Part shown: piece by piece, positions 19,844-60,686 of the stretch
Numbering within the stretch: the stretch's first letter is position 1
How the letters are laid out: each line of letters opens with the position of its first letter
DNA from: an uncultured Methanosarcinales archaeon
GTDB lineage: Archaea; Nanobdellota; Nanobdellia; Woesearchaeales; JAGVZT01
NCBI GenBank assembly: GCA_964444505.1
Contig: CAYUHF010000007.1
Location: forward strand, 6,720-70,719
Length of the DNA: 64,000 nt
Direction: 5' to 3'
The notes under the pieces: model-generated
The model's input: only the letters and a program-made list of their open reading frames with translations
What the model was told of the DNA's origin: nothing
Databases searched by the model: none
Made by a program: the position numbers and the translations under genes

Positions 19844-22210
19844 TTATGGTTGAATTTCTGGTTCTCCAAATTCAACTGTTTCTGCTTTTATTGTTGCTTT
19901 AATGTCATCAAGCATTGGCTCAACATAATGGTATTTTTCGTCAATTACTACTTTTGAGAGTGGTTCAGCAAGACTCATCTGGTTGTCTGTTTTGTATTTT
20001 CTTACCTTGTCAATTATTTCAACTGCTGCTCTTCCTGCTTTTAATAATTCCTTATCGCATTCTCCTGTTTTTGGCCAGGATGTGTTGTGAATGCTTTTTT
20101 GCGGTTCATGGTTTACAAAGTATAAGTGGTATATTTCCTCTGTAATATGCGGCATTATTGGTGCCATGAGTTTTAATGTTGCAAAGACTGCTTTGTAAAG
20201 AGTGTACTGAGCTGATAGTCTTGCACCTTTTCCTCGCTTTTCTGGATTGTATACTCTGTCTTTAACAATCTCGAGATAATAGTCGCAGAATATGTTTTTG
20301 AAAAAGTTCTCGCTTTCTGCTCTTGATTTAGAGTATTCATATTTGTCAAAGCTTTGTGTGCATATATTTACTGTGTTCTGGAGTTCAGCAAGTATCCACT
20401 TGTCTGTCGGGTGCAGTTCTGGCTGCTGCTTTTCATATTCTTCAAGGTGCATTAGTGCAAATCTTGATGCATTCCAGAGTTTTTTTATCATTTTTTTTGC
20501 TGTGACAAGGTCTTTTTCCTTGAAAGCAAGGTCTTCTCCAAGTTTTGAGCCTGCTGCCCAGAATCTTAAGCAGTCTGCACTGTACTTTTGAGTCATCTTT
20601 CTTGGGTCAATTACATTTCCCTTGGATTTTGACATTTTCTGTCCTTTTGGGTCAAGCGCCCATCCTGAGATTACACAGTCTCTCCATGGGTTTATATTGT
20701 TGTGAAGTCGTGATTTGACAACTGTATTGAACAGCCAAAACGTGATTATATCGTGTGCCTGAGGTCTAAGTGTACTTGGGTAAAGGTCATTATATCTCTC
20801 TGGTACAAGTGATGCTGCTATTTGTGGTGATAGTGATGAGGTTGCCCATGTGTTTATTATGTCTGTTTCCGGGATGATTTTGTCTGAACCGCATTTCGGG
20901 CATTTATCAACAGGGGGGTCATCCACTATTGGATCTACCGGAAGGTCTTCTTCTGGTGCCAGGATTACTTCATCGCACTCTTCACAATACCATACTGGAA
21001 ATGGTATTCCAAAGAAGATCTGTCTGGAGATGCACCAGTCCCACTGTAGTCCTTTGACCCAGTTTTCATACCTGTTTCTCATATGGTCAGGATACCAGTT
21101 TAGTTCTTTTCCCCACTCAAGCATCTCTTCTTTTAAGTCCAAATATTTTACAAACCACTGTTTCGAATGAATAAACTCGATTTCTGTGCCGCACCTTTCG
21201 TGCACATTCACTGTGTGTTCTATAGGTCTTTCTTTTATTAGAAGATCTTTTTGTTTCATATCTTCGATCATTTGTGCTCGTGCCTTTTTCATATTGATAC
21301 CCTGGTATTTACCGGCAAGCTCTGTCATTTTTCCTTCTTTTGTTATTGCTTCTTTTATCGGAAGGTTGTATGCTTTCTGCCACTCTGTGTCTGTCAGGTC
21401 GCCAAACGTGCAGCACATAACTATGCCACTTCCTTTTTCAGGGTCAACTCTTTCGTCTTCCATAATAGGAACCTTGAAATCAAATAGTGGTGGCTTGGCC
21501 TGTTTTCCCTCAAGATGCTTGTACCTTGTATCTTCTGGATGATAGAATACTGCAACACATGCAGGGAGTAGTTCTGGCCGTGTTGTTGCTATTACAACAT
21601 CTTCTCCTTCTGTTTTGAATATGATATCAACAAATTTTGATGGTTTTACTGCATCTTCACACTCTACCTGTGATATTGCTGTCATACATTTTGGACAGTA
21701 CATTGCTGGTGCTTCTTTTCTGTATTCTCTTCCTTTTTTGTATAAATCAATGAATGATTTTTGTGAGATCTTTCTTGGTCTGTCTTTTATTGTCTTATAG
21801 ATTAATGAGAAATCACAGCTCATTCCGATGTTTTTCCAGTCCTGAATAAACTCGGGTCTTATTTCCTTATCAAGTGTTTCCATGCACAGCTTTCTGAATT
21901 TTTCTCTTCCCAAATCCACTGCACGTACTCCTTTCTTTTTTTCTATAAGAAGTTGTGTGGGAAGACCATTTCCATCTGTTCCAAATGGATAAAAAACATT
22001 AAAACCAGCCATTTTCTTGTACCGTGCAATAAAATCCTGCTGAGAATATGAAAATGCGTGTCCAAGGTGCATTCTTCCGGATATTGTTGGCGGCGGGGTG
22101 TCTATGCTGAATATTGGTTTTTTTGATTTCTTATCAAATTTGTTTATCCCTTCTTTTTCCCAGAAGTTCTGCCAGTGGGGCTCTTGTTCCTGTGCATTGT
22201 ATTTTGCCAT
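19844..22210 (-). CDS. valS: valyl-tRNA synthetase
   Basis: Class Ia aaRS with PPPTISGRMHLGHAFSYSQQDFIARYKKM (ValRS-type HIGH region) and KMSKSKGN; 788 aa. Confidence 0.8.
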   Translation of the reverse strand: MAKYNAQEQEPHWQNFWEKEGINKFDKKSKKPIFSIDTPPPTISGRMHLGHAFSYSQQDFIARYKKMAGFNVFYPFGTDGNGLPTQLLIEKKKGVRAVDLGREKFRKLCMETLDKEIRPEFIQDWKNIGMSCDFSLIYKTIKDRPRKISQKSFIDLYKKGREYRKEAPAMYCPKCMTAISQVECEDAVKPSKFVDIIFKTEGEDVVIATTRPELLPACVAVFYHPEDTRYKHLEGKQAKPPLFDFKVPIMEDERVDPEKGSGIVMCCTFGDLTDTEWQKAYNLPIKEAITKEGKMTELAGKYQGINMKKARAQMIEDMKQKDLLIKERPIEHTVNVHERCGTEIEFIHSKQWFVKYLDLKEEMLEWGKELNWYPDHMRNRYENWVKGLQWDWCISRQIFFGIPFPVWYCEECDEVILAPEEDLPVDPIVDDPPVDKCPKCGSDKIIPETDIINTWATSSLSPQIAASLVPERYNDLYPSTLRPQAHDIITFWLFNTVVKSRLHNNINPWRDCVISGWALDPKGQKMSKSKGNVIDPRKMTQKYSADCLRFWAAGSKLGEDLAFKEKDLVTAKKMIKKLWNASRFALMHLEEYEKQQPELHPTDKWILAELQNTVNICTQSFDKYEYSKSRAESENFFKNIFCDYYLEIVKDRVYNPEKRGKGARLSAQYTLYKAVFATLKLMAPIMPHITEEIYHLYFVNHEPQKSIHNTSWPKTGECDKELLKAGRAAVEIIDKVRKYKTDNQMSLAEPLSKVVIDEKYHYVEPMLDDIKATIKAETVEFGEPEIQP

Positions 22211-26246: not shown

Positions 26247-26933
26247 TCATGACTGACTTTTACCATCCTCAACTATCAGCGCATGATATTCCTGAAACAT
26301 CTTGTAGTCTTTCTCTAGATTATCTTCCAACAAAGTTTTTATCTCATCATACTTTGCTTTCTTTGAAATCAATCTTTTCTTTAGCAAAAACCTTTTTGTG
26401 TAAGCATCTACAACAAACTCCGGCTGTTTATAGGCATACAACAGAATTGAATCTGCTGTCTCTGGTCCTATTCCCCAGATATCAAGGAGTTGTTCTCGTG
26501 TTGGTATTTTTCCATCCAATCCAATGAAAAACTTTGAAAAAATCTTGAGTTTCTTTGTCTTCTGTCTGAAGTAGCCTGCTGGTCTAATGGTTTTTTGGAG
26601 TTTTTCTTTGGGTGTTTTGATTATTGATTCCGGGTCGAGAAGATCTTGTTTGTACAGATTAAGAAGTGCTTTTGAGGCCTGGTTCCATGATGTGTTTTGT
26701 GTTAAGATTGCTCCGCAACAGATTTCAAATTTCTGTTCTTGTGTTTTTGGATATGAATAATCTCCGGGGTGGTACCCTCCATAGTTTTTGTTTCCCTTTT
26801 TGTATTTGACTTGTCCAATTTCTATTAGGGGCCACCATCCCTGTAGTCCGTACTTTTTTAAGAGTTTTTCATAGATTTTTTTCATAATAGCTTGAGCAGA
26901 ATAATTCTTTATTAGTTTTTCTAAGATTGGCAA
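26247..26933 (-). CDS. HhH-GPD superfamily DNA glycosylase (EndoIII/MagIII-like)
   Basis: Helix-hairpin-helix LLDIWGIGPETADSILLYA followed by a catalytic Asp (VVDAYTKR). Confidence 0.6.
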   Translation of the reverse strand: MPILEKLIKNYSAQAIMKKIYEKLLKKYGLQGWWPLIEIGQVKYKKGNKNYGGYHPGDYSYPKTQEQKFEICCGAILTQNTSWNQASKALLNLYKQDLLDPESIIKTPKEKLQKTIRPAGYFRQKTKKLKIFSKFFIGLDGKIPTREQLLDIWGIGPETADSILLYAYKQPEFVVDAYTKRFLLKKRLISKKAKYDEIKTLLEDNLEKDYKMFQEYHALIVEDGKSQS

Positions 26934-26967: not shown

Positions 26968-27738
26968 ATGATTGCCACTTATGATGAGATTGAAAAAGCA
27001 TCTGAGATTGTGTACAGAGTTTTTAATCATGCTGTTTTCACTGATCCTGATTTTTATTCTGATTCCTCCCGTGTTCCTGACTATTTGGTATTGACTGAGT
27101 TCAACCAAAACCCTCATGAAAGACTAGGTCAGTTTAAGAGCCCCACAATAGATAGATATCTTAAAGTCTTTCCAGCTGGCGGGGTTATGGGAGCAAAGAG
27201 TTCTATTGAACTTTGCGTTGATAATGCAGAGTCAGATGGAAATTGTACAATTGAAGATTATCTTGACATGTTTTACAGAGGACCATATGAAGAAGGTTGG
27301 GCTCTTGGGATCTCTCCAATCATTGTGTTTAAGGGTGAATGCATTGCACAGTGTGTACAAGTTGATTTTGAGGTCGGACCGGACCACTATTCTACTGTGA
27401 AAGAAATGCTTACATCAAGACACCAGGCAGACAAAGACCTATGTTTTCCAACCGAAGGACTTTTTGTGGTAAGTTCTACTGAAGGTATGCACTTTCACTC
27501 ATCATTGTATTTTCCACGACCTTCTGGTAACTCCTGTGTATCTCATGGGTATGGTACTTTTCTTCTTTTGAACCATGATGAGCTAAGGCTTGTGGATGAC
27601 AGACAGATTGGACACAATCTGAGATCTCTTCATGAAGAATGGCCTGAAAATAAATTACCAATCGGTCCTTCTGAACTGGGTTGTCTTAGAATTACGAGAA
27701 GCAAAATAAAACCAAGCATGCCAGAAATTATTGATTAG
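26968..27738 (+). CDS. hypothetical protein
   Basis: 256-aa ORF divergent from the TGase-like gene. Confidence 0.4.
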   Translation: MIATYDEIEKASEIVYRVFNHAVFTDPDFYSDSSRVPDYLVLTEFNQNPHERLGQFKSPTIDRYLKVFPAGGVMGAKSSIELCVDNAESDGNCTIEDYLDMFYRGPYEEGWALGISPIIVFKGECIAQCVQVDFEVGPDHYSTVKEMLTSRHQADKDLCFPTEGLFVVSSTEGMHFHSSLYFPRPSGNSCVSHGYGTFLLLNHDELRLVDDRQIGHNLRSLHEEWPENKLPIGPSELGCLRITRSKIKPSMPEIID

Positions 27739-28361
27739 GGTACTTCAATATAATGCTGGTTTTTTTCCCAGTTTTCCCACGGGATTTCTCCAAATTCACA
27801 TTCACTGCATGTCCAATCAAGATATATCCAGCCATCGTTTTTGTATCTTCTTGGGGCTTCATCAAGCTTTATTCGAACATATGCATGTCCATGAACAATT
27901 ACCAGCTGAGCATCAACACCTACAGCTTCCATCAAAGATGCAAGGAGTATTGAACCTGACTCACAGTCTCCGCCACCAGAGGACATAACTTTCACAGGAT
28001 GCTCAATATATTCTGTGCTTAATGGATCAGAGATGTACTGGATTCTGTCCCTTACAAAATAGTAGATTGCCTTTGCATAGCATATCTTGTTGTCCTCACA
28101 AGAGACTGATGCAATTTTATTTGCTGAATATTTAACTTCTGATGGGATTACTGCTGATCTTAAACCATCAACTTCTGAAAAGTTTTGGGAAGGGTCCAGA
28201 ACTTCACTTATCTCTGGAATGCTTGATGGAGATGGATTTTGTCCAATTCCATAATAGGGCACAATAGTTACTATAAGTATAAAAACAAGAATAAGTGCAA
28301 GCATAATCCTAATTGGATTTCTCCAGCTTTGGTCCTCTTGTTCAGACTCTTCCATATTCAT
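27735..28361 (-). CDS. membrane-anchored transglutaminase-like cysteine protease
   Basis: N-terminal TM segment plus a Cys-His-Asp core (GGDCESGSILLASLMEAVG..VIVHGHAYVRI..DWT). It lies 26 nt downstream of the giant gene on the same strand. Confidence 0.65.
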   Translation of the reverse strand: MNMEESEQEDQSWRNPIRIMLALILVFILIVTIVPYYGIGQNPSPSSIPEISEVLDPSQNFSEVDGLRSAVIPSEVKYSANKIASVSCEDNKICYAKAIYYFVRDRIQYISDPLSTEYIEHPVKVMSSGGGDCESGSILLASLMEAVGVDAQLVIVHGHAYVRIKLDEAPRRYKNDGWIYLDWTCSECEFGEIPWENWEKNQHYIEVP

Positions 28362-28387
28362 AGCATATCAAACAGAATTTAAAAGCC

Positions 28388-31300
28388 TTACTTAAAAACA
28401 TCGATAACGAGTTTAGTTGGCTTTCCTCTGAAAACAACTACTCTTACTTGTCTTACCAGATGTTCAACATCAGATGCTGCTGTGTCAACCACTCTTAGTT
28501 CTTGGGTTTCGTAGGGTTCTCCCTCACAGCAGATAATTTCATGTGTACTATTATATGCTCTTACCCATCCATCATTTTTGTTGTTGCAGATTCTTGTTGT
28601 ATTTGCATCAAAGAATTCACATCCAACCTTGCCGTTACATTCCCTATGACATATTCTGTCATTAATGTAAGTACAGTCTGATTCACATGGTTCAAATTCC
28701 CAGACTATTGTGAAGTTAATTTCTTTCACATCGAAGATTTCTACTTCTTGTTTTGTTACTGTATCTGACCTAAAGCCAATTTTTGATGCCATTAGGTCGT
28801 ATGTAGCATTAGCAATCACGTAGCTTTCATAATAACCTGAACCATTGGTTGTAACATTGTATCTATAAGTTACTTTCCTTACATCATCATAGCCTACAAA
28901 TTCCACAGTGGCATTTGGTACTCCCTGTCCTGTAGAGTTCTTGACCCAGCCAAAGAATACTGCATTTGTGTCGCCAAAGTGCCATTCACCAGGATCACAC
29001 AACTCCTGCCAGCCATCCCCGTCAATATCTGTGTAGATTTGATCGTGCAGATCATGCTGGTTGTATATTCTTATCCTGCACTCACCGTCAACCCACTGAC
29101 ATCTGTCGTCTTCATTACACTCTTTCATATCAATCCTAGGATTATCATTATCTTCATACTGTGAACATTCACTTGCTAACTGCTGTTCATCTAATTCGAG
29201 CTGTGCATAAACAATATCATAGTCTTTGTAGCACTTTCCTTCAAACACACAATCAGTTTCATTATCACAGCAGGCATTATCTGAATAATTTATCCTGTCC
29301 ATAAAAAATCCTTCAATAAGTGATTCTTTGCTTGTGCTTACTACTTCACGGAACCTAAATGTTTCTCCAAGATCATCACCACAGCATTCTGTTGATGTGC
29401 TCAGATCATATTCACCAAATGAGAAAGTCTCTCCATTTTGTGTCCAGTTCAAATCACAGAGTTGACATTGGGCACTACCACTATCACAATCATACCACCT
29501 GTCAAATCCTGGTTCGCACAATGCTATATTGTCATTTCCTGTCGGATTAAAGTTGTTTGCATTTTCGTTATCTTCATAACAGGCACCACTTACATTAACA
29601 CAATCATTCGTGTTATTGCAGCATCCATTTGTATTTGGGTCATCGGGCCACACCATTGAAATATCATTGTTGACATCTGCATTTCTTTTCAAATACTTGT
29701 ATGTCTCGTTAAGATCATCTCCACAACACTCATAGTCATCAAGAACATTTGTGTATTCGCCTACAAACTCACCTGCTCTTGTCCAATGTGCTTCAAGTCC
29801 TACTGTACCCAGTAGTGCATTGCATCCAGTACACTTGGCCATTTCATAATCACAATCAATCCACTGGTCACTTTCTAATGCCTCTCCACAATAAGCTACT
29901 CTGTCATAATCATCTGTATCATTAAGGAATCCTGCATTATTCTCCTGCACACATAGATTGTCTTTGTCCACACAGTTATTGTCTTCCCTGCAGCAAGCTT
30001 CTGTGTTGAGCTCCTTGTTGACAAATGCATTTGCCCCCCCAACATATTTTGTAAAGTTTTTGTAGTACTCAAATGAGTCATCTCCACAGCATCTGGGTGT
30101 GGTCAGGTCATAGTACTCTCCAACATTTGATTCTCCGGCAGTGACGGCATTGTGATCCGTATCAGGAGCATAAGTTCTATCACCATAAAGTTTTGGAGGA
30201 TTCTGTGGACCGCAAATATCTGCGCACCAGAAGTCCATAAAGTCAGCATCGTCACAGTCAAGCCAGGTTCCATTACCGTTTGAATCTAAGCCACTATAGC
30301 AATGTGAGTAAGTGTCATTACCTCCAATGTTCAGATTACCAGTTGTTGCTTCGATTATATCTGATTGACCTTCATTTTGAGTGTTTGACGAGTAGCAATT
30401 GCTTCCGTTCACACAGTCTGTCTGTGAATCACAGCAGGCATCTTCATTGTCATCAAATTCAATTTCGCTTAGTCCACTCACATGTTCTTCAAGTGATTCT
30501 TCATATCTGATAAACTCTGGAACGTCATCTCCGCAACATTCATCTCCTCCCACTTCTCCGCCTATCTGCCAGCCATAATCATTTTCTAAACAGTAATTCT
30601 CATCATCAATATCATACCATCCACCTTCATAGCACATCACTTCATGCTGTCCACCGTCTACCCAAATTGTAGTACTATTTTCAAAGCATTCTCCGTTGAA
30701 GACACAATCTGTTTCTTTATCACAGCATGCATCATCGTTAGTGTCAGTAACAATACTGGAATCTCCCTGATCTTGAACATCTCTGAATACATAATATTCT
30801 GAAAGATCATCACCACAGCATTCTGTTGATGTGCTGAGATCATATTCGCCAAATGAAGATGTCTCCCCATTTTCTGCATAGTCAAATCCACACTGGTTTT
30901 CACAGAAACTCTGTGAGCCGTCACAATCTCTCCATTCTCCTGAAACACACCTTTCTCCTGCTACTGTATCCAAGTTAACATCTAACATTGTGCCTGAGGC
31001 ATAGCAATCACCGTCAAATACACAATCTCCTGAATTATCACAACATGCCTCATCCCCACTATTTGATCCTCCAGTACAGTTCTCATTTGTTCGGTCATTG
31101 CACGTACTAGCTGCATAATCTCTACGGTAGTTGTATTCTTCATTTGCATCATCACCGCAACAACACATCTGACTGGCGTGGTCTCCTGAAGCAATGTTGC
31201 AGAAGTTGGGTCTGGTGTGACCAAAAGCATCATAGTAATATCCATCTTCTGATACTGCTTCTCCACCCACATTCCAGAAGTATGTGGGTTCGCATACACC

Positions 31301-34300
31301 TATTGCGTAATCGAGATTAAGCCAGCTCCCATCGTCTCCCTGACTTTCTGGCAGACAGAAATAATCTTCTCTTCCATCGTTATCATAATCAATATATTCT
31401 CCTGGATCATAGCAAATTCCATTGAAAACACATTTATCAGCGCCTGTACAGCAGGCATTATCTGTGGTATCATTCTGTGCTTTTCCATGGTCTTCTTCCT
31501 GCGGCATATTTGGCCTGAATAATCTGAAATAATTATAGTACTCGTCTTCATCATCACCACAGCAATTAAGTTGTCCTCCCCCAGCTGTCCAGTCTATACC
31601 CATATCACCTGCTGTTGTGTCACAGGTTGAATCACAGTATGACTGGAGTTCATCTGGATCCTGCCATCGTGCATTGCTGCAATAAGACTTGTGGCCTGTA
31701 CCAAAACCATGGCATTGCCCCTGTACAACACAATCACCAGTTGTATTAACACAGTCTGTTGCAGAGCTACAGCAAGCTTCGTCTGCCCCAGAACACCAAG
31801 CATTATTGGAATTGTCTGAATCATAGCATTCCACATAATTTTCAAAGAAATCATCACCACAACAGTTTGCGACGCCTGACTCAAATATCCAGGAAGTACT
31901 ATAACAACTGCTTCCCGGAGGACAAGCATCCATAAACTCATCTATATTATTATCAACCTGATCAGAAGGAACAAGTCCAGTCTCATTATCACAACATGCA
32001 GAGTCAGGAATTCCCCCATCCGTAAAGGTATCTGGATTGCACACTTGGTCTTCACACTGGCAAGTATCATAATCACATTCTTGGTAACCAGAACATGCTG
32101 TGCTTCCATCACATGTTGCAGTGCAATTCTCAAAAGTACATACTGCAGGCCCACAATCTGCTGCCATATCCCCAGTATCTTCTACACATGTACCGTAGTT
32201 TGGATAGTATTTATTTCCATCACATTCTGTATCACACCATCTGCAACCTGCTGTTGCACAATCAGTTGGATTATCAATTTCAGAACAAGTACCAGGGATA
32301 CATGTTATTGACTGGTTTTTATCTGTTCCATTCTGGTGCGAACGATCAATAGTCTCAGCATCATTACCACTATATACACCGCAAACAATATGTACTGTAT
32401 CCTGACCGTCACAATCTATTTGCTCATTATTGAAATATACATCATCATATGTTGCACTCCACGTATCATCTCCATCTTCCCAGCCCAGATCTTCGTCACC
32501 TGAACTATAAACACCATTCTGGTCTCTGTCAATGTAAGCAAAGATACTATCATATCCCTGACCTGATGGTGCTGTGGGGTCAACTGTACAGGTAATATCA
32601 ATATCACTACCTGATACAACTTCTGGTGCCGAGAGTGAGATATCAATTATTCCGACATCACATCCATCATCCCCGTGAATCCCGTCACGGTTATCATAGT
32701 CTGTTTCGCCATCTCCATCATTATCAATACCATCATTGCAGTTACCTGCGATGTGAGATTCCTCTGTCTGGCAGTGCGGATCCTCAAGATCAGTCAATCC
32801 GTCGCAGTCATTATCTATTCCATCATCACATGTTAATTCCCTATCCCATTCAGTCTGGCAGTGACCAGTAAGGTCAACACAATTACTTAAATCTGAACAG
32901 CATCTTTCAGGACCCAAACCAGCTGTCACATAAATCTCATCAACGTCATCTCCACAGCATTCAGTTTCACCTGGCTGATACTCTCCGTGGCCAAAATCTT
33001 CTCCTGATTCAACATAGCAGTCTATACCTGAACAGTCAGGGAGGTTTGTCCCGGAATCACAGTAAGCGCATGTAGTTGACGAGTTATCACAATCATACCA
33101 CTTGCCATCACCAGCTTCAGCTATACAGACTGCATCAGATTCTGAGTCACCAATACCAAGATGATATCCTATATTTAGTGCAGCATAACAATCACCATTA
33201 TAAACACAGTCATCAGTGTTGTCACAGCATGAATTATCTGTAGTAACATCTGCTGGACAAAACATTCCTGCTCCAGATGTGTGGCAATGCCTGTACTCAA
33301 AAAACTCATCTTGGTCATCACCACAGCAAAGTCCCTGTGTTCCTACACCAAACCCAATATCATAGCATGAACTTCCAGGTGGACAGTTTTCTGCAAAGTT
33401 TTCTATTGGCTGCGAAACATCCACGTTTGGATAGTATCCTGTTTCATTATCACAACATTGTTGGCCTGCGTCAGGGTCGCATTCCTCGTCTGTGCACAAG
33501 CAGGTATCAGTATCGCAGGTTGCAGGAAGTGTGCATCCTCCGCTCATACCACACCCGTCCACAATACACTTTCCTTGTGTACAAACTGGGTCTGCACATC
33601 CAGTGCTTGCATCCACACATGTAAGATAGTCTGGATAATATTTTGGTCCATCACACTCCTGATCACACCAAGTACATTGTGGATCTGCATTACAATCTCC
33701 CTCTTCAAGGTCTCCACACCCTTCCAAACAGGTAACTGTCTGCCACACGTCAGGACCGTTCTGGTAGGATCTATTATATTTTTCTCTGGAATCATTATAG
33801 ACACCACATGCAATATCCACACTCGGTGCACTTAGGCAGTTTATTGTTTCATTTCTGAAAACAACTTCATCATCATTCGGCCAGTAATCATCTGAATCCC
33901 ATGTAAAATCTGTATCTCCGGCGTCATATATTCCGTTTCCATTTCTGTCAATATACGCAAAGATACTATCATAACCTGTGCCTGCTGGAGCAGTTGGATT
34001 GACATTACATGTTATGTTAAGTTTTCTCCCAGAGATTACTTCTGTATCTGAAAGTGTGATTGAATCAATTCCGACAGGACAACCATCGTCTCCATGAGGA
34101 GATGGCCCACTAGCTCCCCTGTTTTGAGTGTCATAATCCCATTCTCCATCACAATCTGTATCATTACCGTCATTACACTGGCTCTCTTGCACACCAAACT
34201 CATCTCTGCAGAGGTTTAGGCTGTCAACACAGTTCTTACCATCCTGACAACATCTTGGGTCTCCAACTCCGTCCGAGACATAATTTTCATTATCATCATC

Positions 34301-37300
34301 TCCACAGCACTCCGAGGCAGTTCCAGAGTTGTATTCTCCAAATTGTGATGATTCTCCTCCCTGGACATAATCAAGACCACATAATGCCCCAGTACATGTT
34401 GTAGAATCAGCATCACAGTCCCTCCACTCGCCAGCAATACATATCGCACCAGGAATACTATCTGCATCCGGGTCACCTTTTGTATCTTCAATATAGCAGT
34501 CTCCACCATATACGCAATCATTCTCCCCACTGCAACAAAACTTATCTGAAGGATCTGAACCTCCTACACAGTTATTATCATAAATATCAGAGCATGCACT
34601 TCCTCCCTGATCAACCAAGTAGGTGAAATATTCTGAATCATCATCTCCGCAGCAAATTCCGTTTGATTTAATATTATAACAGGAAGTCCCTGGGGGACAG
34701 TTCTCTGCAAAGTTTTCTATTGGCTGCGAAACATCCACGTTTGGATAGTATCCTGTTTCATTATCACAGCACTGCGGGCTTGAATCAGGGTCGCATTCCT
34801 GATCCTCACACTGGCATGTATCATAGTCACATTCCTGATTGCCTGAACATGCTGTGCTTCCATCACATGTTGCAGTGCAATTCTCAAAAGTACATACTGC
34901 AGGCCCACAATCTGCTGCCATATCTCCGGTATCTTCAACACACATACCGTAGTTTGGATAGTATTTATTTCCATCACATTCTGTATCACACCATCGGCAA
35001 CCTGCTGTTGCACAGTCGACTGAGTTTTCAATTTCAGAACAAGTGCTTGGGATACATGTTATTGAGTGGGATTTATCTGTTCCATTCTGGTATGATCTGT
35101 CCCATGGTTCAGTTGGAGAGGAATATACTCCACAAACAACATGTACTGTATCCTGACCGTCGCAATCTATTTGCTCATTATTGAAATAAACTTCACCATA
35201 GGTCGGATCCCAAGTATCATCTCCATCTTCCCAGCTCAGATCCTCGTCACCTGAACTCCACACACCATTCTGATCCCTGTCAACATACGCAAAAATACTA
35301 TTATATCCTCTATCTTTTGGTGCTGTCGGATCAACTGTACAAGTAATGTCAATATCATTACCTGATACTACTTCTGCTGCCGAGAGTGAGATATCAATTA
35401 TTCCTACATCGCATCCATCATCTCCATGCTCAGGATCATTCATATTATCATAATCAGTCAAATCATCCCCGTCATTATCGATACCATCATTACAGTTACC
35501 TGCGATGTGAGATTCCTCTGTCAAGCAGTTTGGATCTTCATCGTCCGTCAGACCGTCACAGTCATTGTCAATATCATCATCACAATTCACACCCAGCGTT
35601 TCAGTACCAGATCTGCAATTGTTTGTTCCATCAACGCATGTATTCCCGTCTGCACAGCATCTGGGTTCACCAACTCCTGCTGTAATGTAATTCTCACCTG
35701 CATCGTCTTCACAACATTCCTCTTCGGCACCTGTGTCGTATTCACCAAATTGAACAGATTCACCACCATAAACATAGTTATAGTCACAGATTGTCTCGCA
35801 AGCATAATTATTTGAGTCACAATCCGACCACCTTCCAGGATTATCACCTGACAAATCCCAATCGTTACACCATTCACCCAGTACACCATCTCCGTCAATA
35901 TCTGCCATATCAAGATCATTATAACAAGTGCTCTCAAAGACACATTGTTGACTTTGAGGGCAACAAGTACCGTCTGTAACATCATCACTTTTTCCGACAC
36001 ACACAGGATTAGTTATGTCGTTGCATCCATTTGTGGCATATTGGTCATAGTAAACATAATATTCTTGGTTATCATCTCCACAGCAAGCTGCATTTCCTTC
36101 AAGAAATGTCCAATCTTCGCTATAACAACTACCAGACGAAGACGCAGGACATTGGTTGTCAAAAACACTTGGTTCATTATCAGTATTCATATTAGGTAAA
36201 TAACTTCCTTCACTATCACAGCAAGCTTGGCTTAAATCAGGATCACATGGTGTTGCTTCATAGCAGTTGCCACTGGCATCAACTATTTTATCTGACTCAT
36301 TACAACATCTGGCAGGGTTTACACCATCATTGATATAGTATTCGTTAGGGTCGTCACCACAGCATTCTTCTTCAGAATCAAAATTACATCCCAGGTTTTC
36401 ACACTCTGTCTTATCACTTAAAACTGAACAATCACCCATATTTGTACACTCATCTAAAAAACTGTCCCATGCACATCCCGCTTCACTTAAGCCATTACAG
36501 CAGGATAATGATCCTCCACAAGCAGCATAGCAATCAAATGTTCCAGAGCAACGCAATTCATATTCTCCATGGTCTGTTAATTCACCTGAATAAGCTACTC
36601 CTGTATTAACTCCTTCTGAGGCTCCCCACTCTTCACAATAATCATAGTCAGGATCTATCCAATATCTATCCTTACAATAGAAACTTTGAGATATTGAATT
36701 CCCATTGCAATTCATATCCTCTCCATATCTAAAAGTTGTATCACTAGGATAACAGCAACGTGGACCAACAATAGGATATGCACCCCCTATACAATCTGTC
36801 TCTGACTGACAGCAAGCAACACTATTGGTGTTGTGTACCTCAGAAGTATCATCCTCATCAGTGTAAGCCATATTATGTATAGCATAATCAAATAAACCAT
36901 CACAACAAACTGGTGAGCTAGCATTCACTATAATTTCAGTTTTTCCCCATTGGGCCCAGTCGTATCCTGTATCTCCCTCCCAGGAATTTCTTTCAGGATG
37001 TGTAGTAAACCAAAATCGTTGGATTGATCCAGCATAATTACTAAGATCTACAGCAAAAGGTACCCACCCTGTATCATTTACTAAAAGTCCACTCCATACA
37101 ACGCTATCAGATACGCTATTGAGATCCATTTTTGAAGTGGTGCTTATTCTAATAGTGAACCAAACACCCCCGCTATTTCTGGAACCATCGGCTATACCCG
37201 CATAGCCCACAAGATATGCATCATCCGGAACAAATTTATCGTATATATGTACTGTTGTTCCAGTTCCTACTGCCGTATTCCATGAAGGATGTGCCTGTCT

Positions 37301-38692
37301 TGCGACCATTGCCTCACCCCCCACAGTCGGATATCCAATATTCTGCTGCTGACATACATCCCAGAACATTCCCTCATTAGTTTTTGTCCCATTTCTTCCG
37401 GGTTTTGGATCTGAATAGAAATCACTGTATACATCTCCTGATGACTTAAAGAATTCATTAGCATCATCTCCACAACACCCTGTTTCCAAAAGAATGGAGT
37501 CTCCCGCTCTTATTGCAATGTCATCAAAATAAATTGGCATTCCATCCGCATTGTCGCCATCTGTAACTGCTCTTATTCTGACAGTACCACTAGAATCAGA
37601 TGTAAAATTACATTGCACATATTCCCACTGGTTGTATACGCCAGCAGTGGTTCCTGCATGACACTCATATACTGCATCATGAAGATCAAGATAAGCATTT
37701 CCTGGATAGAAAAGATCAGTCTTTTCTCTGTATATATAGCCTGTGAGATTGAACATTGTATTTTTTGGTACATCAACTTCCTGCCAGGTGCTTACCCCTG
37801 GACCTGTTCCTGTCCAACTGCTCTTCAAAGAGTAACTTCCTGAATGGGCCCTCTCATCAGACCTAGTATGATCAGCATGCTCATTCCAATCTTCAGCATC
37901 GTTACTTGATCCTCTTTCAAATCCTGAGTTTTTAACCACTCCTCTGTATTCTCCATGTGGTGTCCTTTCCCCACTCTGGACTCCCGCGGGACTACCACAA
38001 TATGCATTTGGATAGTCCCAATCCGAATTTGTACAGGCACCACTATCCCAGGAATCACAACTTGGATTACACCAGTTCTTGAACCAATTGTTTGAGTCAC
38101 AGTCAAGCCAGGTCGCTGGCTGGGAATCTGGGGCGGATGGACTTTGATCATAGAGACAATATGCTAGATTATCATTACGACCTGGATGAAGCCCCACATG
38201 AATAAAATCACCGAATTGTGAAAAACTGCTGCCTGATGGATGAGGATCTCCTTCCTTATCAAGGCACTCCGCACTTAAACTAACTCTGGTATCAGCGTGG
38301 TTACAAAAACCTATTGTCTGATATCCCCACTTGTCAATGTGAGCACATCTGTTAACAAAAAAGCCAGAGAATATAGTGTCATTGTCACAGTCCTCCGGAT
38401 AATCTGGATTCGAGGGATTACAACCATCCTCACAGCTTCTCGCATCATAAAAGCCAGGCTCTCCAATTACCTGTGTACATGTTTGCCCGTCTGCCTCATC
38501 AAAAGTACCACATGCATTACATGTGCATGAATCTTCTCCTCGACTGCATTCAAAATAATTTTCTCCCCATGAAGGGGGTTGGTAACAGCAAACAACAGTT
38601 TCCCCAGCAACTTGTAAGACTAAAAATAGACATAATACACTAATTATCCAAAAATGCTTCCTCATATCCAGCCTCTTTTTTATTTTTTTCAA
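28388..38692 (-). CDS. giant secreted cysteine-rich surface protein (3434 aa)
   Basis: The start shows a Sec signal peptide. A CBM4/9-like jelly-roll domain (GFERGS..W..AHSGSYSLK) follows. There are more than 10 CCGDD...CC...CY modules and three ~460-aa tandem repeats. A C-terminal carboxypeptidase-regulatory-like domain is present. The protein has no TM anchor other than the signal peptide. Confidence 0.85.
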   Translation of the reverse strand: MKKIKKRLDMRKHFWIISVLCLFLVLQVAGETVVCCYQPPSWGENYFECSRGEDSCTCNACGTFDEADGQTCTQVIGEPGFYDARSCEDGCNPSNPDYPEDCDNDTIFSGFFVNRCAHIDKWGYQTIGFCNHADTRVSLSAECLDKEGDPHPSGSSFSQFGDFIHVGLHPGRNDNLAYCLYDQSPSAPDSQPATWLDCDSNNWFKNWCNPSCDSWDSGACTNSDWDYPNAYCGSPAGVQSGERTPHGEYRGVVKNSGFERGSSNDAEDWNEHADHTRSDERAHSGSYSLKSSWTGTGPGVSTWQEVDVPKNTMFNLTGYIYREKTDLFYPGNAYLDLHDAVYECHAGTTAGVYNQWEYVQCNFTSDSSGTVRIRAVTDGDNADGMPIYFDDIAIRAGDSILLETGCCGDDANEFFKSSGDVYSDFYSDPKPGRNGTKTNEGMFWDVCQQQNIGYPTVGGEAMVARQAHPSWNTAVGTGTTVHIYDKFVPDDAYLVGYAGIADGSRNSGGVWFTIRISTTSKMDLNSVSDSVVWSGLLVNDTGWVPFAVDLSNYAGSIQRFWFTTHPERNSWEGDTGYDWAQWGKTEIIVNASSPVCCDGLFDYAIHNMAYTDEDDTSEVHNTNSVACCQSETDCIGGAYPIVGPRCCYPSDTTFRYGEDMNCNGNSISQSFYCKDRYWIDPDYDYCEEWGASEGVNTGVAYSGELTDHGEYELRCSGTFDCYAACGGSLSCCNGLSEAGCAWDSFLDECTNMGDCSVLSDKTECENLGCNFDSEEECCGDDPNEYYINDGVNPARCCNESDKIVDASGNCYEATPCDPDLSQACCDSEGSYLPNMNTDNEPSVFDNQCPASSSGSCYSEDWTFLEGNAACCGDDNQEYYVYYDQYATNGCNDITNPVCVGKSDDVTDGTCCPQSQQCVFESTCYNDLDMADIDGDGVLGEWCNDWDLSGDNPGRWSDCDSNNYACETICDYNYVYGGESVQFGEYDTGAEEECCEDDAGENYITAGVGEPRCCADGNTCVDGTNNCRSGTETLGVNCDDDIDNDCDGLTDDEDPNCLTEESHIAGNCNDGIDNDGDDLTDYDNMNDPEHGDDGCDVGIIDISLSAAEVVSGNDIDITCTVDPTAPKDRGYNSIFAYVDRDQNGVWSSGDEDLSWEDGDDTWDPTYGEVYFNNEQIDCDGQDTVHVVCGVYSSPTEPWDRSYQNGTDKSHSITCIPSTCSEIENSVDCATAGCRWCDTECDGNKYYPNYGMCVEDTGDMAADCGPAVCTFENCTATCDGSTACSGNQECDYDTCQCEDQECDPDSSPQCCDNETGYYPNVDVSQPIENFAENCPPGTSCYNIKSNGICCGDDDSEYFTYLVDQGGSACSDIYDNNCVGGSDPSDKFCCSGENDCVYGGDCYIEDTKGDPDADSIPGAICIAGEWRDCDADSTTCTGALCGLDYVQGGESSQFGEYNSGTASECCGDDDNENYVSDGVGDPRCCQDGKNCVDSLNLCRDEFGVQESQCNDGNDTDCDGEWDYDTQNRGASGPSPHGDDGCPVGIDSITLSDTEVISGRKLNITCNVNPTAPAGTGYDSIFAYIDRNGNGIYDAGDTDFTWDSDDYWPNDDEVVFRNETINCLSAPSVDIACGVYNDSREKYNRSYQNGPDVWQTVTCLEGCGDLEEGDCNADPQCTWCDQECDGPKYYPDYLTCVDASTGCADPVCTQGKCIVDGCGMSGGCTLPATCDTDTCLCTDEECDPDAGQQCCDNETGYYPNVDVSQPIENFAENCPPGSSCYDIGFGVGTQGLCCGDDQDEFFEYRHCHTSGAGMFCPADVTTDNSCCDNTDDCVYNGDCYAALNIGYHLGIGDSESDAVCIAEAGDGKWYDCDNSSTTCAYCDSGTNLPDCSGIDCYVESGEDFGHGEYQPGETECCGDDVDEIYVTAGLGPERCCSDLSNCVDLTGHCQTEWDRELTCDDGIDNDCDGLTDLEDPHCQTEESHIAGNCNDGIDNDGDGETDYDNRDGIHGDDGCDVGIIDISLSAPEVVSGSDIDITCTVDPTAPSGQGYDSIFAYIDRDQNGVYSSGDEDLGWEDGDDTWSATYDDVYFNNEQIDCDGQDTVHIVCGVYSGNDAETIDRSHQNGTDKNQSITCIPGTCSEIDNPTDCATAGCRWCDTECDGNKYYPNYGTCVEDTGDMAADCGPAVCTFENCTATCDGSTACSGYQECDYDTCQCEDQVCNPDTFTDGGIPDSACCDNETGLVPSDQVDNNIDEFMDACPPGSSCYSTSWIFESGVANCCGDDFFENYVECYDSDNSNNAWCSGADEACCSSATDCVNTTGDCVVQGQCHGFGTGHKSYCSNARWQDPDELQSYCDSTCDTTAGDMGIDWTAGGGQLNCCGDDEDEYYNYFRLFRPNMPQEEDHGKAQNDTTDNACCTGADKCVFNGICYDPGEYIDYDNDGREDYFCLPESQGDDGSWLNLDYAIGVCEPTYFWNVGGEAVSEDGYYYDAFGHTRPNFCNIASGDHASQMCCCGDDANEEYNYRRDYAASTCNDRTNENCTGGSNSGDEACCDNSGDCVFDGDCYASGTMLDVNLDTVAGERCVSGEWRDCDGSQSFCENQCGFDYAENGETSSFGEYDLSTSTECCGDDLSEYYVFRDVQDQGDSSIVTDTNDDACCDKETDCVFNGECFENSTTIWVDGGQHEVMCYEGGWYDIDDENYCLENDYGWQIGGEVGGDECCGDDVPEFIRYEESLEEHVSGLSEIEFDDNEDACCDSQTDCVNGSNCYSSNTQNEGQSDIIEATTGNLNIGGNDTYSHCYSGLDSNGNGTWLDCDDADFMDFWCADICGPQNPPKLYGDRTYAPDTDHNAVTAGESNVGEYYDLTTPRCCGDDSFEYYKNFTKYVGGANAFVNKELNTEACCREDNNCVDKDNLCVQENNAGFLNDTDDYDRVAYCGEALESDQWIDCDYEMAKCTGCNALLGTVGLEAHWTRAGEFVGEYTNVLDDYECCGDDLNETYKYLKRNADVNNDISMVWPDDPNTNGCCNNTNDCVNVSGACYEDNENANNFNPTGNDNIALCEPGFDRWYDCDSGSAQCQLCDLNWTQNGETFSFGEYDLSTSTECCGDDLGETFRFREVVSTSKESLIEGFFMDRINYSDNACCDNETDCVFEGKCYKDYDIVYAQLELDEQQLASECSQYEDNDNPRIDMKECNEDDRCQWVDGECRIRIYNQHDLHDQIYTDIDGDGWQELCDPGEWHFGDTNAVFFGWVKNSTGQGVPNATVEFVGYDDVRKVTYRYNVTTNGSGYYESYVIANATYDLMASKIGFRSDTVTKQEVEIFDVKEINFTIVWEFEPCESDCTYINDRICHRECNGKVGCEFFDANTTRICNNKNDGWVRAYNSTHEIICCEGEPYETQELRVVDTAASDVEHLVRQVRVVVFRGKPTKLVIDVFK
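31300..35700 (-). repeat. three ~1.38-kb tandem intragenic repeats; copies 1 and 3 are near-identical
   Basis: The DNA string acagttacctgcgatgtgagattcctctgt (encoding TEESHIAGNC) recurs at ~32740 and ~35490. Antisense ORFs 31942..32154 and 34717..35031 are near-identical. Confidence 0.7.
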
Positions 38693-38785: not shown

Positions 38786-39466
38786 TTGGGTGGTAGATTG
38801 ACTATTGACAGAGTATTCGAGATTTGTTTTGAGGGACCTATTGCATCAGGTAAAACAACCTGCGCCAGACATCTTAAAAAAAACTTGGGTGCCGGCGGAT
38901 TTAGATTAGTGCATGAAGACCCATATGAGAATGAGTTCTTTGGGGATTATTACAGGGCTATGGTGGCTGTGCGTGCAGGAAAACCCGTTCCCTCAGATAT
39001 TGAAGAAGGAATATTTTACATGGCCCAGGACAGGTTTCTTGACTTGACTGTAGAGAGAGAAAGTGCAGGCAATAGTGTGAATAGGGTATCAGACCGGCAT
39101 GTATGGGCTGACATTAATATCTTTGCTGAGGGACTTATAGAAAGAGGTTTGTTTTCACCAGAACACGCCTGCATGTACAGAAAAAAAGCATCAACTATAA
39201 ATATTAATTATCCTGACTTTTTGGTATATCTTGCCACAAGTGATCTGGTTTGTTACCATAGGGCACAAAACCGAAGCAGAGATGAAGAGATGAATGTTTC
39301 ATTTTCGCATTTCGAGTTTATTGGTCAGCGGTACAGGGAGCTGATGCCCACATATCCGGGAAGAGTTTTAACACTTCCAACTGATGAACTTAATCTTGAA
39401 TCTGAGCCTGATGATATCAACTATATGCTTGAACAAGTAGCAGGAGCTCTGGCAAAATTAAATTGA
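38786..39466 (+). CDS. deoxynucleoside kinase (dNK family)
   Basis: P-loop FEGPIASGKTT plus VSDRHVWAD (ERS/DRS-type motif); 226 aa. Confidence 0.7.
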   Translation: MGGRLTIDRVFEICFEGPIASGKTTCARHLKKNLGAGGFRLVHEDPYENEFFGDYYRAMVAVRAGKPVPSDIEEGIFYMAQDRFLDLTVERESAGNSVNRVSDRHVWADINIFAEGLIERGLFSPEHACMYRKKASTININYPDFLVYLATSDLVCYHRAQNRSRDEEMNVSFSHFEFIGQRYRELMPTYPGRVLTLPTDELNLESEPDDINYMLEQVAGALAKLN

Positions 39467-40809: not shown

Positions 40810-41461
40810 ACTAATTGTTCTAGAGGGATTGGATGGTTCTGGTAAGCTGACGCAGCTGAAGATGCTGAAAGAGAGACTTATTAAAGATGGTTATCCTGTT
40901 GACACTTTTGACTTTCCCCAGTATGATTCTTTTTTTGGTGCTCTTGTGGGTAAATACCTGCGGGGTGAATTTGGTTCTATGGTTGAACTTCCAGTTGAGA
41001 TTCCGACTCTGTTGTATGCTCTTGACAGGTACTATGTGAGGGATGATATTGAAGAGTCTCTTGAGGAAAATATTGTTCTTCTTAATAGATACACTCCTTC
41101 AAATACCTGTTTTCAGGGTGCAAAGCTTAAGGGTAAGGACCGAGACAAGTTTATCAAGTGGGTTGGTGCTGTCGAGGCAAGGCTTCCACGACCTGACCTT
41201 GTGCTGTTTCTTGATGTTCCAAGATATATTGCAAGAAATCTAATTGGAAACAAGGATCTTAGAAAGTACCTGAATGGAAAAAAGCAGGATATTCATGAGA
41301 AAAATGATCCTTACCAGGAAGAGGTTGAGAGTCTTTACAGAAGACTTGTGAGGGAGAGGAAAAACTGGATCGGTATCAAATGTGTTGAGTATGACCTACT
41401 GCTAAAGGTGGAGGAAATTCATGATAAAATATGGAAGGTAGTAAAACGGGAGTTAGGGTAG
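40802..41461 (+). CDS. tmk: thymidylate kinase
   Basis: IVLEGLDGSGKLTQ P-loop, ALDRYY (DRY motif) and an LNRYTPS lid. Confidence 0.8.
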   Translation: MGKLIVLEGLDGSGKLTQLKMLKERLIKDGYPVDTFDFPQYDSFFGALVGKYLRGEFGSMVELPVEIPTLLYALDRYYVRDDIEESLEENIVLLNRYTPSNTCFQGAKLKGKDRDKFIKWVGAVEARLPRPDLVLFLDVPRYIARNLIGNKDLRKYLNGKKQDIHEKNDPYQEEVESLYRRLVRERKNWIGIKCVEYDLLLKVEEIHDKIWKVVKRELG

Positions 41462-57317: not shown

Positions 57318-57430
57318 TTAATTACCTCCTGATTTCAAGATCAAAGACAGAGGATACACAATTCTTCTCTGATGAAGTATGTTGGTAGTCAACCACAGTT
57401 CTTCCACTGTAATAACATACCAAAACCTAC

Positions 57431-59329: not shown

Positions 59330-59330
59330 T

Positions 59331-60626: not shown

Positions 60627-60686
60627 TTACCTAAATAATCAAACAATTGTAATCAAAAAACCCCTCTAATTACTCTTCTTCCATTA

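What the first reader, a model, noticed from the sequence alone, without database searches (positions are those of the whole stretch)
27735..28361. Transglutaminase-like Cys protease encoded directly after the giant surface protein (LapA/LapG-like logic)
- A 208-aa protein has an N-terminal TM anchor and a papain/transglutaminase-like Cys-His-Asp core.
- It starts 26 nt after the giant gene's stop on the same strand.
- In bacteria, the periplasmic transglutaminase-like cysteine proteinase LapG cleaves the giant adhesin LapA to release it.
- An analogous protease, or a cross-linking transglutaminase, dedicated to the giant protein is a reasonable hypothesis. This pairing has not, to my knowledge, been described for archaea.
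Basis: inference. Interest (0 to 1): 0.6.

Follow-up and report, generated by a model that had tools for sequence, protein, structure and literature searches.

The report
Membrane-anchored LapG-like cysteine protease, not giant-specific
The small gene after the giant surface-protein gene does encode a membrane-tethered, outward-facing transglutaminase-fold cysteine protease whose closest solved relative is bacterial LapG, but it belongs to a widespread Woesearchaeota family that has its own promoter and almost never sits next to a giant gene, so a dedicated pairing is not supported.

Summary
ORF 27735-28361 (-) encodes 208 aa (probably 206, from the second ATG). It has one N-terminal TM helix and an invariant Cys133-His159-Asp182 triad, and it starts 26 nt after the stop of a 3434-aa, 8.3%-Cys secreted protein.

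LapG is the closest solved structure by sequence and by fold. The nucleophile sits in the D-C-E motif that binds calcium in LapG and DvhG. The TM-plus-linker layout matches membrane-anchored DvhG.

The protein is not a BTLCP (PF06035) member. It belongs to PF01841, in a family found across Woesearchaeota/Nanoarchaeota.

The dedicated-pair idea mostly fails:
- In 96 distinct related loci with an upstream neighbour, none is 1000 aa or longer. The recurrent neighbours are UPPS, DXS, IspG, polyprenyl synthase and ribosomal protein L1.
- The giant is nearly an orphan and lacks a [T/A/P]AAG site, a T1SS and a LapD-like gene.
- The 26-nt spacer carries a TATA-like element that is conserved, in register, in the nearest relatives.

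Residual support: four loci among the nearest relatives have unrelated large surface-protein genes 0-2 genes upstream. This could be inherited gene order.

Verdict: an ordinary new member of a known superfamily, plausibly a surface-protein protease. Giant-specific function is unproven.

The parts
27735..28361 (-). Gene for the transglutaminase-like cysteine protease. It encodes 208 aa from the first ATG, or 206 aa from the likely true start at 28355. The stop codon is at 27735-27737.
28251..28313 (-). N-terminal transmembrane signal-anchor, residues 17-37 (IRIMLALILVFILIVTIVPYY). It is predicted to place the catalytic domain outside the cell.
   Evidence: Hydropathy. AF2 helix 16-37. Translation. 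The topology is inferred from the R/K residues before the helix.
27738..28145 (-). Extracytoplasmic transglutaminase-fold catalytic domain, residues 73-208. It contains the four extra invariant Cys (C88, C94, C185, C188).
   Evidence: Pfam PF01841. AF2 pLDDT above 90 over most of the domain. Foldseek hits to LapG, PNGase and Pei proteins. Invariant columns.
27960..27968 (-). Codons for D132-C133-E134. C133 is the nucleophile, flanked by the acidic pair that forms the calcium site in LapG and DvhG.
   Evidence: DvhG D316A/E318A and C317A mutants in PMC13090378.
27885..27887 (-). Codon for the catalytic His159, in the motif GHAY.
27816..27818 (-). Codon for the catalytic Asp182, in the motif YLDWTC.
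   Evidence: The Pfam match ends here, at profile position 107 of 108.
28377..28389 (-). Promoter-like BRE/TATA element AAGGCTTTTAAAT, at -34 to -22 from the ATG at 28355. It overlaps the giant gene's TAA stop codon.
   Evidence: TATA boxes cluster at -35 to -26 before most genes of the window. The same element, AAAGCTTAAAAAT, lies in register in L002, L145, L148, L149 and L150. Its function is inferred, not measured.
28388..38692 (-). Neighbouring giant secreted protein. It is 3434 aa from the TTG start, or 3425 aa from the ATG at 38665. Composition is 8.3% Cys and 13% Asp, with 16 CC[GE]DD motifs. It has an N-terminal signal peptide, no C-terminal TM helix, and a CarboxypepD_reg domain at residues 3248-3329.
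26247..26933 (-). HhH-GPD DNA glycosylase gene downstream on the same strand. It marks inherited synteny with L002, L004 and L006 and is not a functional partner.

Best explanation
The gene encodes a type-II membrane protein with a short acidic cytoplasmic N-terminus and one TM helix. A linker of about 35-45 residues then leads to a compact transglutaminase-fold domain on the outer face of the membrane.

The most likely activity is a calcium-assisted cysteine endopeptidase. It would use Cys133-His159-Asp182, with D132 and E134 flanking the nucleophile as in LapG and DvhG. Its likely substrates are proteins of the cell envelope, cut close to the membrane.

It belongs to an orthologous family conserved across Woesearchaeota/Nanoarchaeota. 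It is transcribed from its own promoter.

Its position directly behind the giant gene is specific to this lineage. The fast-evolving giant ORF ends inside the protease gene's promoter region. The arrangement does not look like an operon or a dedicated two-gene system. The giant could still be one of several substrates.

Shown here: the ORF, the fold, the invariant residues, the family distribution and the lack of conserved adjacency. Inferred: topology, calcium dependence, peptidase rather than other hydrolase or transferase chemistry, and the substrates.
For: - Pfam PF01841 matches all 30 aligned family members.
- Invariant residues are the D-C-E-S-G motif, H159 and D182.
- The AF2 model has mean pLDDT 84.9.
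- The six best Foldseek PDB hits are all LapG chains. Next come PNGase, putative proteases, PeiP/PeiW and CPR-C4.
- LapG is also the best PDB match by sequence and by profile.
- hhalign against six plasmid-encoded BTLCPs gives 91% probability and E=1e-6 around the nucleophile.
- DvhG is a membrane-anchored BTLCP with a TM helix and linker, and its D316/E318 calcium site flanks C317.
- The family is large: more than 200 90%-identity clusters and 79 50%-identity clusters at E<=1e-30.
- None of 96 upstream neighbours is 1000 aa or longer.
- The conserved neighbours are UPPS (29 loci), DXS (21), IspG (18), polyprenyl synthase (17), ribosomal protein L1, a CBS-domain protein and AMMECR1.
- A promoter-like element is present in register with close relatives.
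Against: - There is no biochemical evidence of any kind.
- Transglutaminase-fold enzymes also act as amidases (PNGase), isopeptidases (Pei) and cross-linkers, so peptidase chemistry is not certain.
- The family does not match PF06035. The hhalign match to BTLCPs covers only 52 columns and stops before the His.
- The role of the four extra invariant Cys is unknown.
- Four loci among the nearest relatives, plus the window, place the gene 0-2 genes downstream of large surface-protein genes of at least three unrelated types. That is more than the family-wide background of 12 large genes in 1296 and hints at some link.
- Read-through transcription from the giant gene cannot be excluded.
Confidence: 0.5

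Rival explanations
1. Dedicated LapG-like partner. The protease specifically cleaves the adjacent giant Cys-rich protein to release or mature it, and the two genes form a functional unit.
For: - The genes are on the same strand with a 26-nt spacing.
- LapG is the closest solved structure.
- The D-C-E motif and the DvhG-like membrane tether are present.
- Among the nearest relatives, large surface proteins lie 0-2 genes upstream in L147, L002, L006 and L001.
Against: - None of 96 upstream neighbours family-wide is 1000 aa or longer.
- Close relatives L144, L145, L148, L149 and L151-L153 lack a large upstream gene.
- The giant is nearly an orphan, and its two partial homologues have no TGase-like neighbour.
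- The giant has no [T/A/P]AA[G/V] site. Its only hydrophobic segment is an N-terminal signal peptide, so no obvious membrane tether needs cutting.
- The protease gene has its own conserved promoter element.
- The sub-clade association can be explained by inherited gene order, because the unrelated HhH-GPD gene is equally syntenic.
Confidence: 0.12
2. Envelope-glycan or lipid-carrier-linked enzyme. The domain would act as an amidase or transferase in the pathway that builds or remodels lipid-linked glycans or glycoproteins, for example by PNGase-like deglycosylation or by attaching or removing surface polymers. It would not be a general endopeptidase.
For: - In relatives the gene is most often next to UPPS (PF01255, position -1 in 29 of 107 loci, co-directional with a 28-nt gap in L151).
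- 61 of 105 loci have at least one of UPPS, DXS, IspG or polyprenyl synthase within three genes.
- An overlapping GT2 glycosyltransferase gene follows it in L148, L149, L150 and L002.
- PNGase structures are the second-best class of fold hits, at E about 1e-3.
Against: - LapG scores about 50-fold better than PNGase in Foldseek.
- The neighbours also include ribosomal protein L1, Kae1, Lon, AMMECR1 and SecF. The block looks like housekeeping synteny rather than a pathway operon.
- In the window itself none of these genes is nearby.
- The Cys pairs are arranged differently from the PNGase zinc site. This last point rests on my own knowledge of the PNGase zinc-binding CxxC pairs and is not a tested result.
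Confidence: 0.15
3. True cross-linking transglutaminase. It would form isopeptide bonds that stitch the giant protein, or other envelope proteins, into a stable surface layer.
For: - The fold and triad are those of transglutaminases.
- The catalytic domain is extracellular.
Against: - The nearest structures are hydrolases: LapG, PNGase, Pei and CPR-C4. Factor XIII and TG2 type enzymes rank far lower, at E about 0.1.
- Prokaryotic PF01841 members were predicted to be mostly proteases by Makarova et al. 1999, as cited in PMC10318531.
- The giant is poor in Lys (1.8%) and Gln (3.0%).
- There is no conserved linkage to any candidate substrate.
Confidence: 0.06

Closest known systems
LapG and DvhG, the bacterial transglutaminase-like cysteine proteinases (BTLCP, Pfam PF06035, MEROPS C93)
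   Same: - It is a compact single-domain transglutaminase-fold Cys-His-Asp enzyme on the extracytoplasmic side.
- LapG is the closest solved structure by sequence and by fold.
- It shares the GGGDCE motif, with acidic residues flanking the nucleophile that form the calcium site in LapG and DvhG.
- The N-terminal TM helix plus linker matches DvhG.
   Different: - No family member matches PF06035, 0 of 30 at E<=1.
- Profile-profile similarity is limited to 52 columns around the Cys.
- Spacing differs: Cys-to-His is 26 residues against 35, and His-to-Asp is 23 against 17.
- It has four extra invariant Cys.
- It is archaeal, with no T1SS, no LapD/DvhD-like gene and no [T/A/P]AAG substrate next door.
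- It has no conserved linkage to an adhesin gene.
The generic archaeal and bacterial transglutaminase-like superfamily (Pfam PF01841 Transglut_core and PF04473 DUF553; Makarova, Aravind and Koonin 1999)
   Same: - It scores above the Pfam gathering threshold in all 30 members tested.
- More distant relatives found by the profile search are PF01841/DUF553 proteins, and many carry GGDCEDL/F.
   Different: It forms its own tight orthologous group of about 205-250 aa with a fixed TM-linker-domain architecture and four additional invariant Cys. It appears restricted to Woesearchaeota/Nanoarchaeota-type genomes, judging by the names on the records.
Pseudomurein endoisopeptidases PeiW and PeiP, and peptide:N-glycanase
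   Same: They share the transglutaminase fold and the Cys-His-Asp triad, and they are hydrolases acting on envelope or glycoprotein substrates.
   Different: The fold matches are weaker, at E 1e-3 to 5e-2 against 2e-5 for LapG. No Pfam match to PF12386 appeared.

Membership tests
Transglutaminase-like superfamily (PF01841) | The profile HMM match is above the curated gathering score. | tested here: met
   40.3 bits against a cut-off of 23, E=4.1e-10. All 30 aligned homologues match.
Transglutaminase-like superfamily (PF01841) | The Cys-His-Asp catalytic triad is conserved in the expected order and motifs. | tested here: met
   C133 (GDCESG), H159 (GHAY) and D182 (YLDWT) are invariant in 30 sequences. 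The Pfam match spans profile positions 11-107 of 108 and ends at D182.
Transglutaminase-like superfamily (PF01841) | The protein has the papain/transglutaminase fold. | tested here: met
   In the AF2 model 116 of 208 residues have pLDDT of 90 or more. All significant Foldseek PDB hits are transglutaminase-fold proteins.
BTLCP / LapG family (PF06035, MEROPS C93) | The protein matches the family profile PF06035. | tested here: not met
   PF06035 is absent from the hits at E<=1 for the window protein and for all 30 homologues. More distant relatives are PF01841/DUF553.
BTLCP / LapG family (PF06035, MEROPS C93) | Acidic calcium-binding residues lie next to the active site and flank the nucleophile (D-C-E). 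| tested here: met
   D132 and E134 are invariant. They correspond to GDCED in six BTLCPs and to DvhG D316/E318. Calcium binding itself was not tested. The motif also occurs in other PF01841 proteins, so it is not exclusive to BTLCPs.
BTLCP / LapG family (PF06035, MEROPS C93) | Homology extends over the whole catalytic core. | tested here: inconclusive
   hhalign of A1 against A2 gives 91% probability and E=1.1e-6, but only 52 columns around the Cys align. Foldseek TM-scores to LapG are 0.39-0.53.
BTLCP / LapG family (PF06035, MEROPS C93) | The enzyme is located outside the cytoplasm, by a signal peptide (LapG) or a TM anchor (DvhG). | tested here: met
   There is a single N-terminal hydrophobic helix at residues 17-37 with basic residues before it. 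The topology is inferred from sequence only.
Lap-type adhesin release system (LapA/LapG/LapD plus T1SS) | The substrate adhesin has an N-terminal retention module and a [T/A/P]AAG cleavage site. | tested here: not met
   The 3434-aa protein has no [TAP]AA[GV] anywhere. It has eight AA dipeptides, none in a similar context, and a plain N-terminal signal peptide. The motif definition is from PMC13090378.
Lap-type adhesin release system (LapA/LapG/LapD plus T1SS) | Type I secretion genes and a c-di-GMP receptor (LapD/DvhD) are encoded alongside. | tested here: not met
   The flanking genes are an HhH-GPD glycosylase, an unknown 256-aa ORF, a methyltransferase, DUF655, a deoxynucleoside kinase, an MtrA/ThyA-like protein and thymidylate kinase. 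Only about ten flanking genes were scanned, not the whole genome.
Lap-type adhesin release system (LapA/LapG/LapD plus T1SS) | The protease gene is recurrently linked to a large adhesin gene across genomes. | tested here: not met
   None of 96 upstream neighbours is 1000 aa or longer. A large gene lies within 3 genes upstream only in L002, L006, L001 and L147, which are among the nearest relatives. It is absent in L144, L145, L148, L149 and L151-L153.
Peptide:N-glycanase (PNGase) | A zinc-binding pair of CxxC motifs is required for activity, together with a glycan-binding site. | not testable with these tools
   The four invariant Cys (C88x5C94 and C185xxC188) differ in arrangement from the PNGase zinc site. 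That comparison rests on my own knowledge of the PNGase zinc site. The PNGase fold hits are at E about 1e-3.

The most novel reading that the evidence does not exclude
Woesearchaeota and other DPANN archaea might carry a family-wide, membrane-tethered, calcium-dependent LapG/DvhG-like protease. It would mature or shed their large, fast-evolving surface adhesins, including this Cys-rich giant, and so control attachment to hosts or surfaces. This would be an archaeal analogue of bacterial adhesin-release systems, working without a T1SS or c-di-GMP. In one sub-clade the gene would sit beside a slot where adhesin genes are repeatedly replaced.
Probability: 0.15. Interest if true: 0.65.

Novelty: new member of a known kind. 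Interest (0 to 1): 0.3.

Why it matters
How DPANN archaea attach to and detach from their hosts is unknown. Their giant surface proteins are the main suspects. A conserved surface protease that processed those proteins would be a useful experimental handle.

This analysis shows that gene adjacency in this one genome is not good evidence for such a link. It also shows that the protease family is real, conserved and LapG/DvhG-like in fold, motif and membrane tethering. That makes it a reasonable candidate for biochemical testing on envelope proteins in general.

Tried and rejected
BTLCP sequences were obtained instead by tblastn against plasmids.
- The metagenome scan with the single protein found nothing. 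The alignment-based scan worked.
- The window's own protein P0001 is not on record for a contig look-up, so the window's own contig could not be looked up.
- Rfam and tRNA scans of the window were empty.
- The Chatterjee 2012 paper on the LapG structure is not held. The calcium-site residues were taken from the DvhG paper instead.
- I first guessed that the window's 632-aa and 343-aa genes were DXS and IspG. That was wrong. The first has no Pfam family and the second is a Ddl-like ATP-grasp protein.
- No similarity was found between the window's giant and the L002 or L006 large proteins by BLAST or phmmer.
- I considered operon coupling with the giant and rejected it, because of the TATA-type rather than GGAGG-type upstream signal.

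Full report

Yes. The minus-strand ORF at 27735..28361 encodes 208 aa. The 3434-aa ORF at 28388..38692 lies directly upstream on the same strand. The spacer is 26 nt.

The small protein has an acidic N-terminus and one hydrophobic helix at residues 17-37. A linker of lower model confidence follows, then a confidently modelled alpha/beta domain. The AF2 model has mean pLDDT 84.9.

Pfam PF01841 (Transglut_core) matches at E=4e-10, covering residues 89-182. Thirty homologues at 42-58% identity were aligned. The invariant residues are D132-C133-E134-S135-G136, H159 (GHAY), D182 (YLDWT), and four additional Cys: C88, C94, C185 and C188.

The organism is a Woesearchaeota-type DPANN archaeon. This is judged from the names on homologous records. 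The window has 38.9% GC.

**2. What is the protein most like?**

LapG is the best PDB hit by sequence (4fgo, E=0.003) and by profile (E=0.005). The top six Foldseek hits to solved structures are all LapG chains, at E 2e-5 to 2e-4 and TM-scores of about 0.4-0.5. PNGase follows at about 1e-3. Further down come two putative proteases, PeiP/PeiW and CPR-C4.

The shared motif is GGGDCE. In DvhG, a LapG orthologue, D316 and E318 flank the nucleophile C317 and form the calcium site that activity requires. DvhG is also anchored by an N-terminal TM helix and a linker (PMC13090378). In architecture and active-site motif, the window protein therefore resembles a small DvhG.

It is nevertheless not a member of the BTLCP family:
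- PF06035 is not matched by the protein or by any of 30 homologues at E<=1.
- A profile-profile comparison with six plasmid-encoded BTLCPs gives 91% probability. Only 52 columns around the Cys align.
- The more remote relatives found by an exhaustive profile search are PF01841/DUF553 proteins. Many of them also carry GGDCEDL/F.

**3. Is the pairing with a giant protein conserved?**

Family-wide, no. The family is large. It has more than 200 clusters at 90% identity. At 50% identity it has 79 clusters with E<=1e-30.

I collected 55 loci from species-representative genomes and 80 from metagenomes, each with up to 10 kb of flank on either side. ORF neighbourhoods were computed for 107 distinct loci:
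- 96 loci have an upstream neighbour.
- Half of those neighbours are on the same strand.
- The median size is 239 aa and the largest is 677 aa.
- None reaches 1000 aa.

The recurrent neighbours are housekeeping genes, many of them for isoprenoid synthesis:
- UPPS (29 loci, mostly at position -1)
- DXS (21 loci)
- IspG (18 loci)
- polyprenyl synthase (17 loci)
- ribosomal protein L1, a CBS-domain protein, AMMECR1, Kae1, Lon and SecF

The test in the other direction also fails. The giant protein has only two partial homologues among 5.8 billion proteins, covering 15% and 5% of its length. Neither locus encodes a TGase-like protein.

**4. A residue of association among the nearest relatives**

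In an NJ tree the window protein groups with L001, L002, L147 and a few short-contig sequences. L006 lies just outside this group.

Loci with a large surface-protein gene upstream on the same strand:
- L147: the immediately upstream ORF is truncated at the contig end. It is the C-terminus of a large protein with a C-terminal TM anchor, homologous to those of L001 and L006.
- L002: an Ig-domain (Big_13) protein of at least 2830 aa, then a 321-aa MopE-motif protein with a C-terminal anchor, then the protease gene.
- L006: an Ig/cadherin protein of at least 1443 aa, two genes upstream.
- L001: the homologous large protein, three genes upstream.

Equally close loci without one are L144, L145, L148 and L149. 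The slightly more distant L151-L153 also lack one. L150 is uninformative, because its contig begins about 120 nt upstream of the gene.

The background rate is 12 large genes among 1296. The family-wide count is therefore not clearly above expectation.

The cases cluster among related genomes, where an unrelated HhH-GPD glycosylase gene is equally syntenic. Inherited gene order is a sufficient explanation. The large proteins are of at least three unrelated kinds, which could also indicate a replaceable adhesin slot or a loose functional link. I cannot separate these readings.

**5. Transcription signals**

Most genes of the window have a TATA-like box 26-35 nt before the ATG. That is a leaderless-type arrangement. 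Genes internal to operons instead have GGAGG just upstream.

The 26-nt spacer contains AAGGCTTTTAAAT at -34 to -22 from the second ATG (28355). The same element, AAAGCTTAAAAAT, is conserved in register upstream of the orthologues in L002, L145, L148, L149 and L150, whatever gene lies upstream of them.

The giant ORF's last codons and its stop codon overlap this conserved element. The protease gene therefore most likely keeps its own promoter. Its product would then be the 206-aa form, as in the public annotation. This is inference from sequence, not a measurement.

**6. Lap-system hallmarks**

The giant protein has an ordinary N-terminal signal peptide and no other hydrophobic segment. It has no [T/A/P]AA[G/V] motif. 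Its only Pfam domain is CarboxypepD_reg. It contains 16 CC[GE]DD motifs, 13% Asp and 8.3% Cys.

The flanking genes encode nucleotide-metabolism and repair enzymes. None encodes a T1SS component or a LapD-like receptor.

**7. Conclusion**

The best reading is a conserved, independently transcribed, membrane-tethered extracytoplasmic cysteine hydrolase of the transglutaminase fold. It is most likely a calcium-assisted endopeptidase acting on envelope proteins near the membrane. In fold and layout it is LapG/DvhG-like, but it is not a BTLCP member.

Its adjacency to the giant gene is lineage-specific and is not evidence of a dedicated system. The rival readings cannot be excluded without biochemistry:
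- a dedicated partner of the giant protein
- a glycan or lipid-carrier-linked amidase, suggested by the UPPS and GT2 neighbours and the PNGase fold hits
- a cross-linking transglutaminase

No paper in the searchable library describes this family in DPANN archaea, or a BTLCP-like system in archaea. The general presence of transglutaminase-like predicted proteases in archaea has been known since Makarova et al. 1999, as cited in PMC10318531.

Noticed in passing
L001-L137 (for example L039:8042-9904, L136:6794-7831, L099:2285-2995, L063:81-1145): In many Woesearchaeota/Nanoarchaeota loci the TGase-like gene sits among isoprenoid genes: DXS, IspG/GcpE (MEP pathway), polyprenyl synthase and UPPS. 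61 of 105 distinct loci have at least one of these within three genes. MEP-pathway genes in DPANN archaea, and their tight clustering with this surface enzyme, may deserve a separate look.
   Followed up: partly
L148:1774-2472, L149:2407-3147, L150:768-1457, L002:10573-11349: In the nearest relatives a family-2 glycosyltransferase gene overlaps the 3' end of the TGase-like gene, which looks like an operon. The window lacks this gene at that position.
   Followed up: partly
L147:1-1011, L001:2-1438, L006:1-4332, L002:3-9516: Large surface proteins with a C-terminal TM anchor lie 0-2 genes upstream of the TGase-like gene in these loci among the nearest relatives. They carry Ig-like, cadherin or MopE-motif domains, or no Pfam domain at all. 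The group includes at least two unrelated kinds of protein, and the window's giant is a third kind. This may be a variable adhesin slot.
   Followed up: partly
window 26968-27738 (+): A 256-aa ORF converges on the protease gene and overlaps its stop by 4 nt. It has no Pfam or NCBIfam family, only a weak AEP-like hit at E=0.1. It has its own TATA-like box at about -25 from its ATG. No counterpart was seen in the related loci.
   Followed up: no
window 56286-61928 (-): This gene cluster holds a D-Ala-D-Ala-ligase-like ATP-grasp protein (343 aa), a 632-aa protein with no Pfam family, an octopine/nopaline-dehydrogenase-like protein (431 aa) and a 413-aa protein with no family. The internal genes have GGAGG ribosome-binding sites. 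It may be a peptide or opine-type biosynthetic operon, which would be unusual for a DPANN archaeon.
   Followed up: no
window 38786-42111 (+): A nucleotide-salvage block starts just upstream of, and divergent from, the giant gene. It holds a deoxynucleoside kinase, a 448-aa protein combining MtrA-like and thymidylate-synthase-like regions, a thymidylate kinase and an unknown 226-aa protein.
   Followed up: no
window, genome-wide (for example upstream of 5193, 9285-10670, 19844-22210): Most genes have a TATA box 26-35 nt before the ATG, which implies largely leaderless mRNAs. Operon-internal genes instead carry GGAGG. This is useful for calling starts and transcription units in this lineage.
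   Followed up: partly
window 28388-38692 (-): The giant protein has 16 copies of a CC[GE]DD motif and two DNDCDG (MopE-like metal-binding) motifs. It has large internal duplications, for example near-identical segments around residues 1259 and 2177. Among 5.8 billion proteins it has essentially no full-length homologue.
   Followed up: partly
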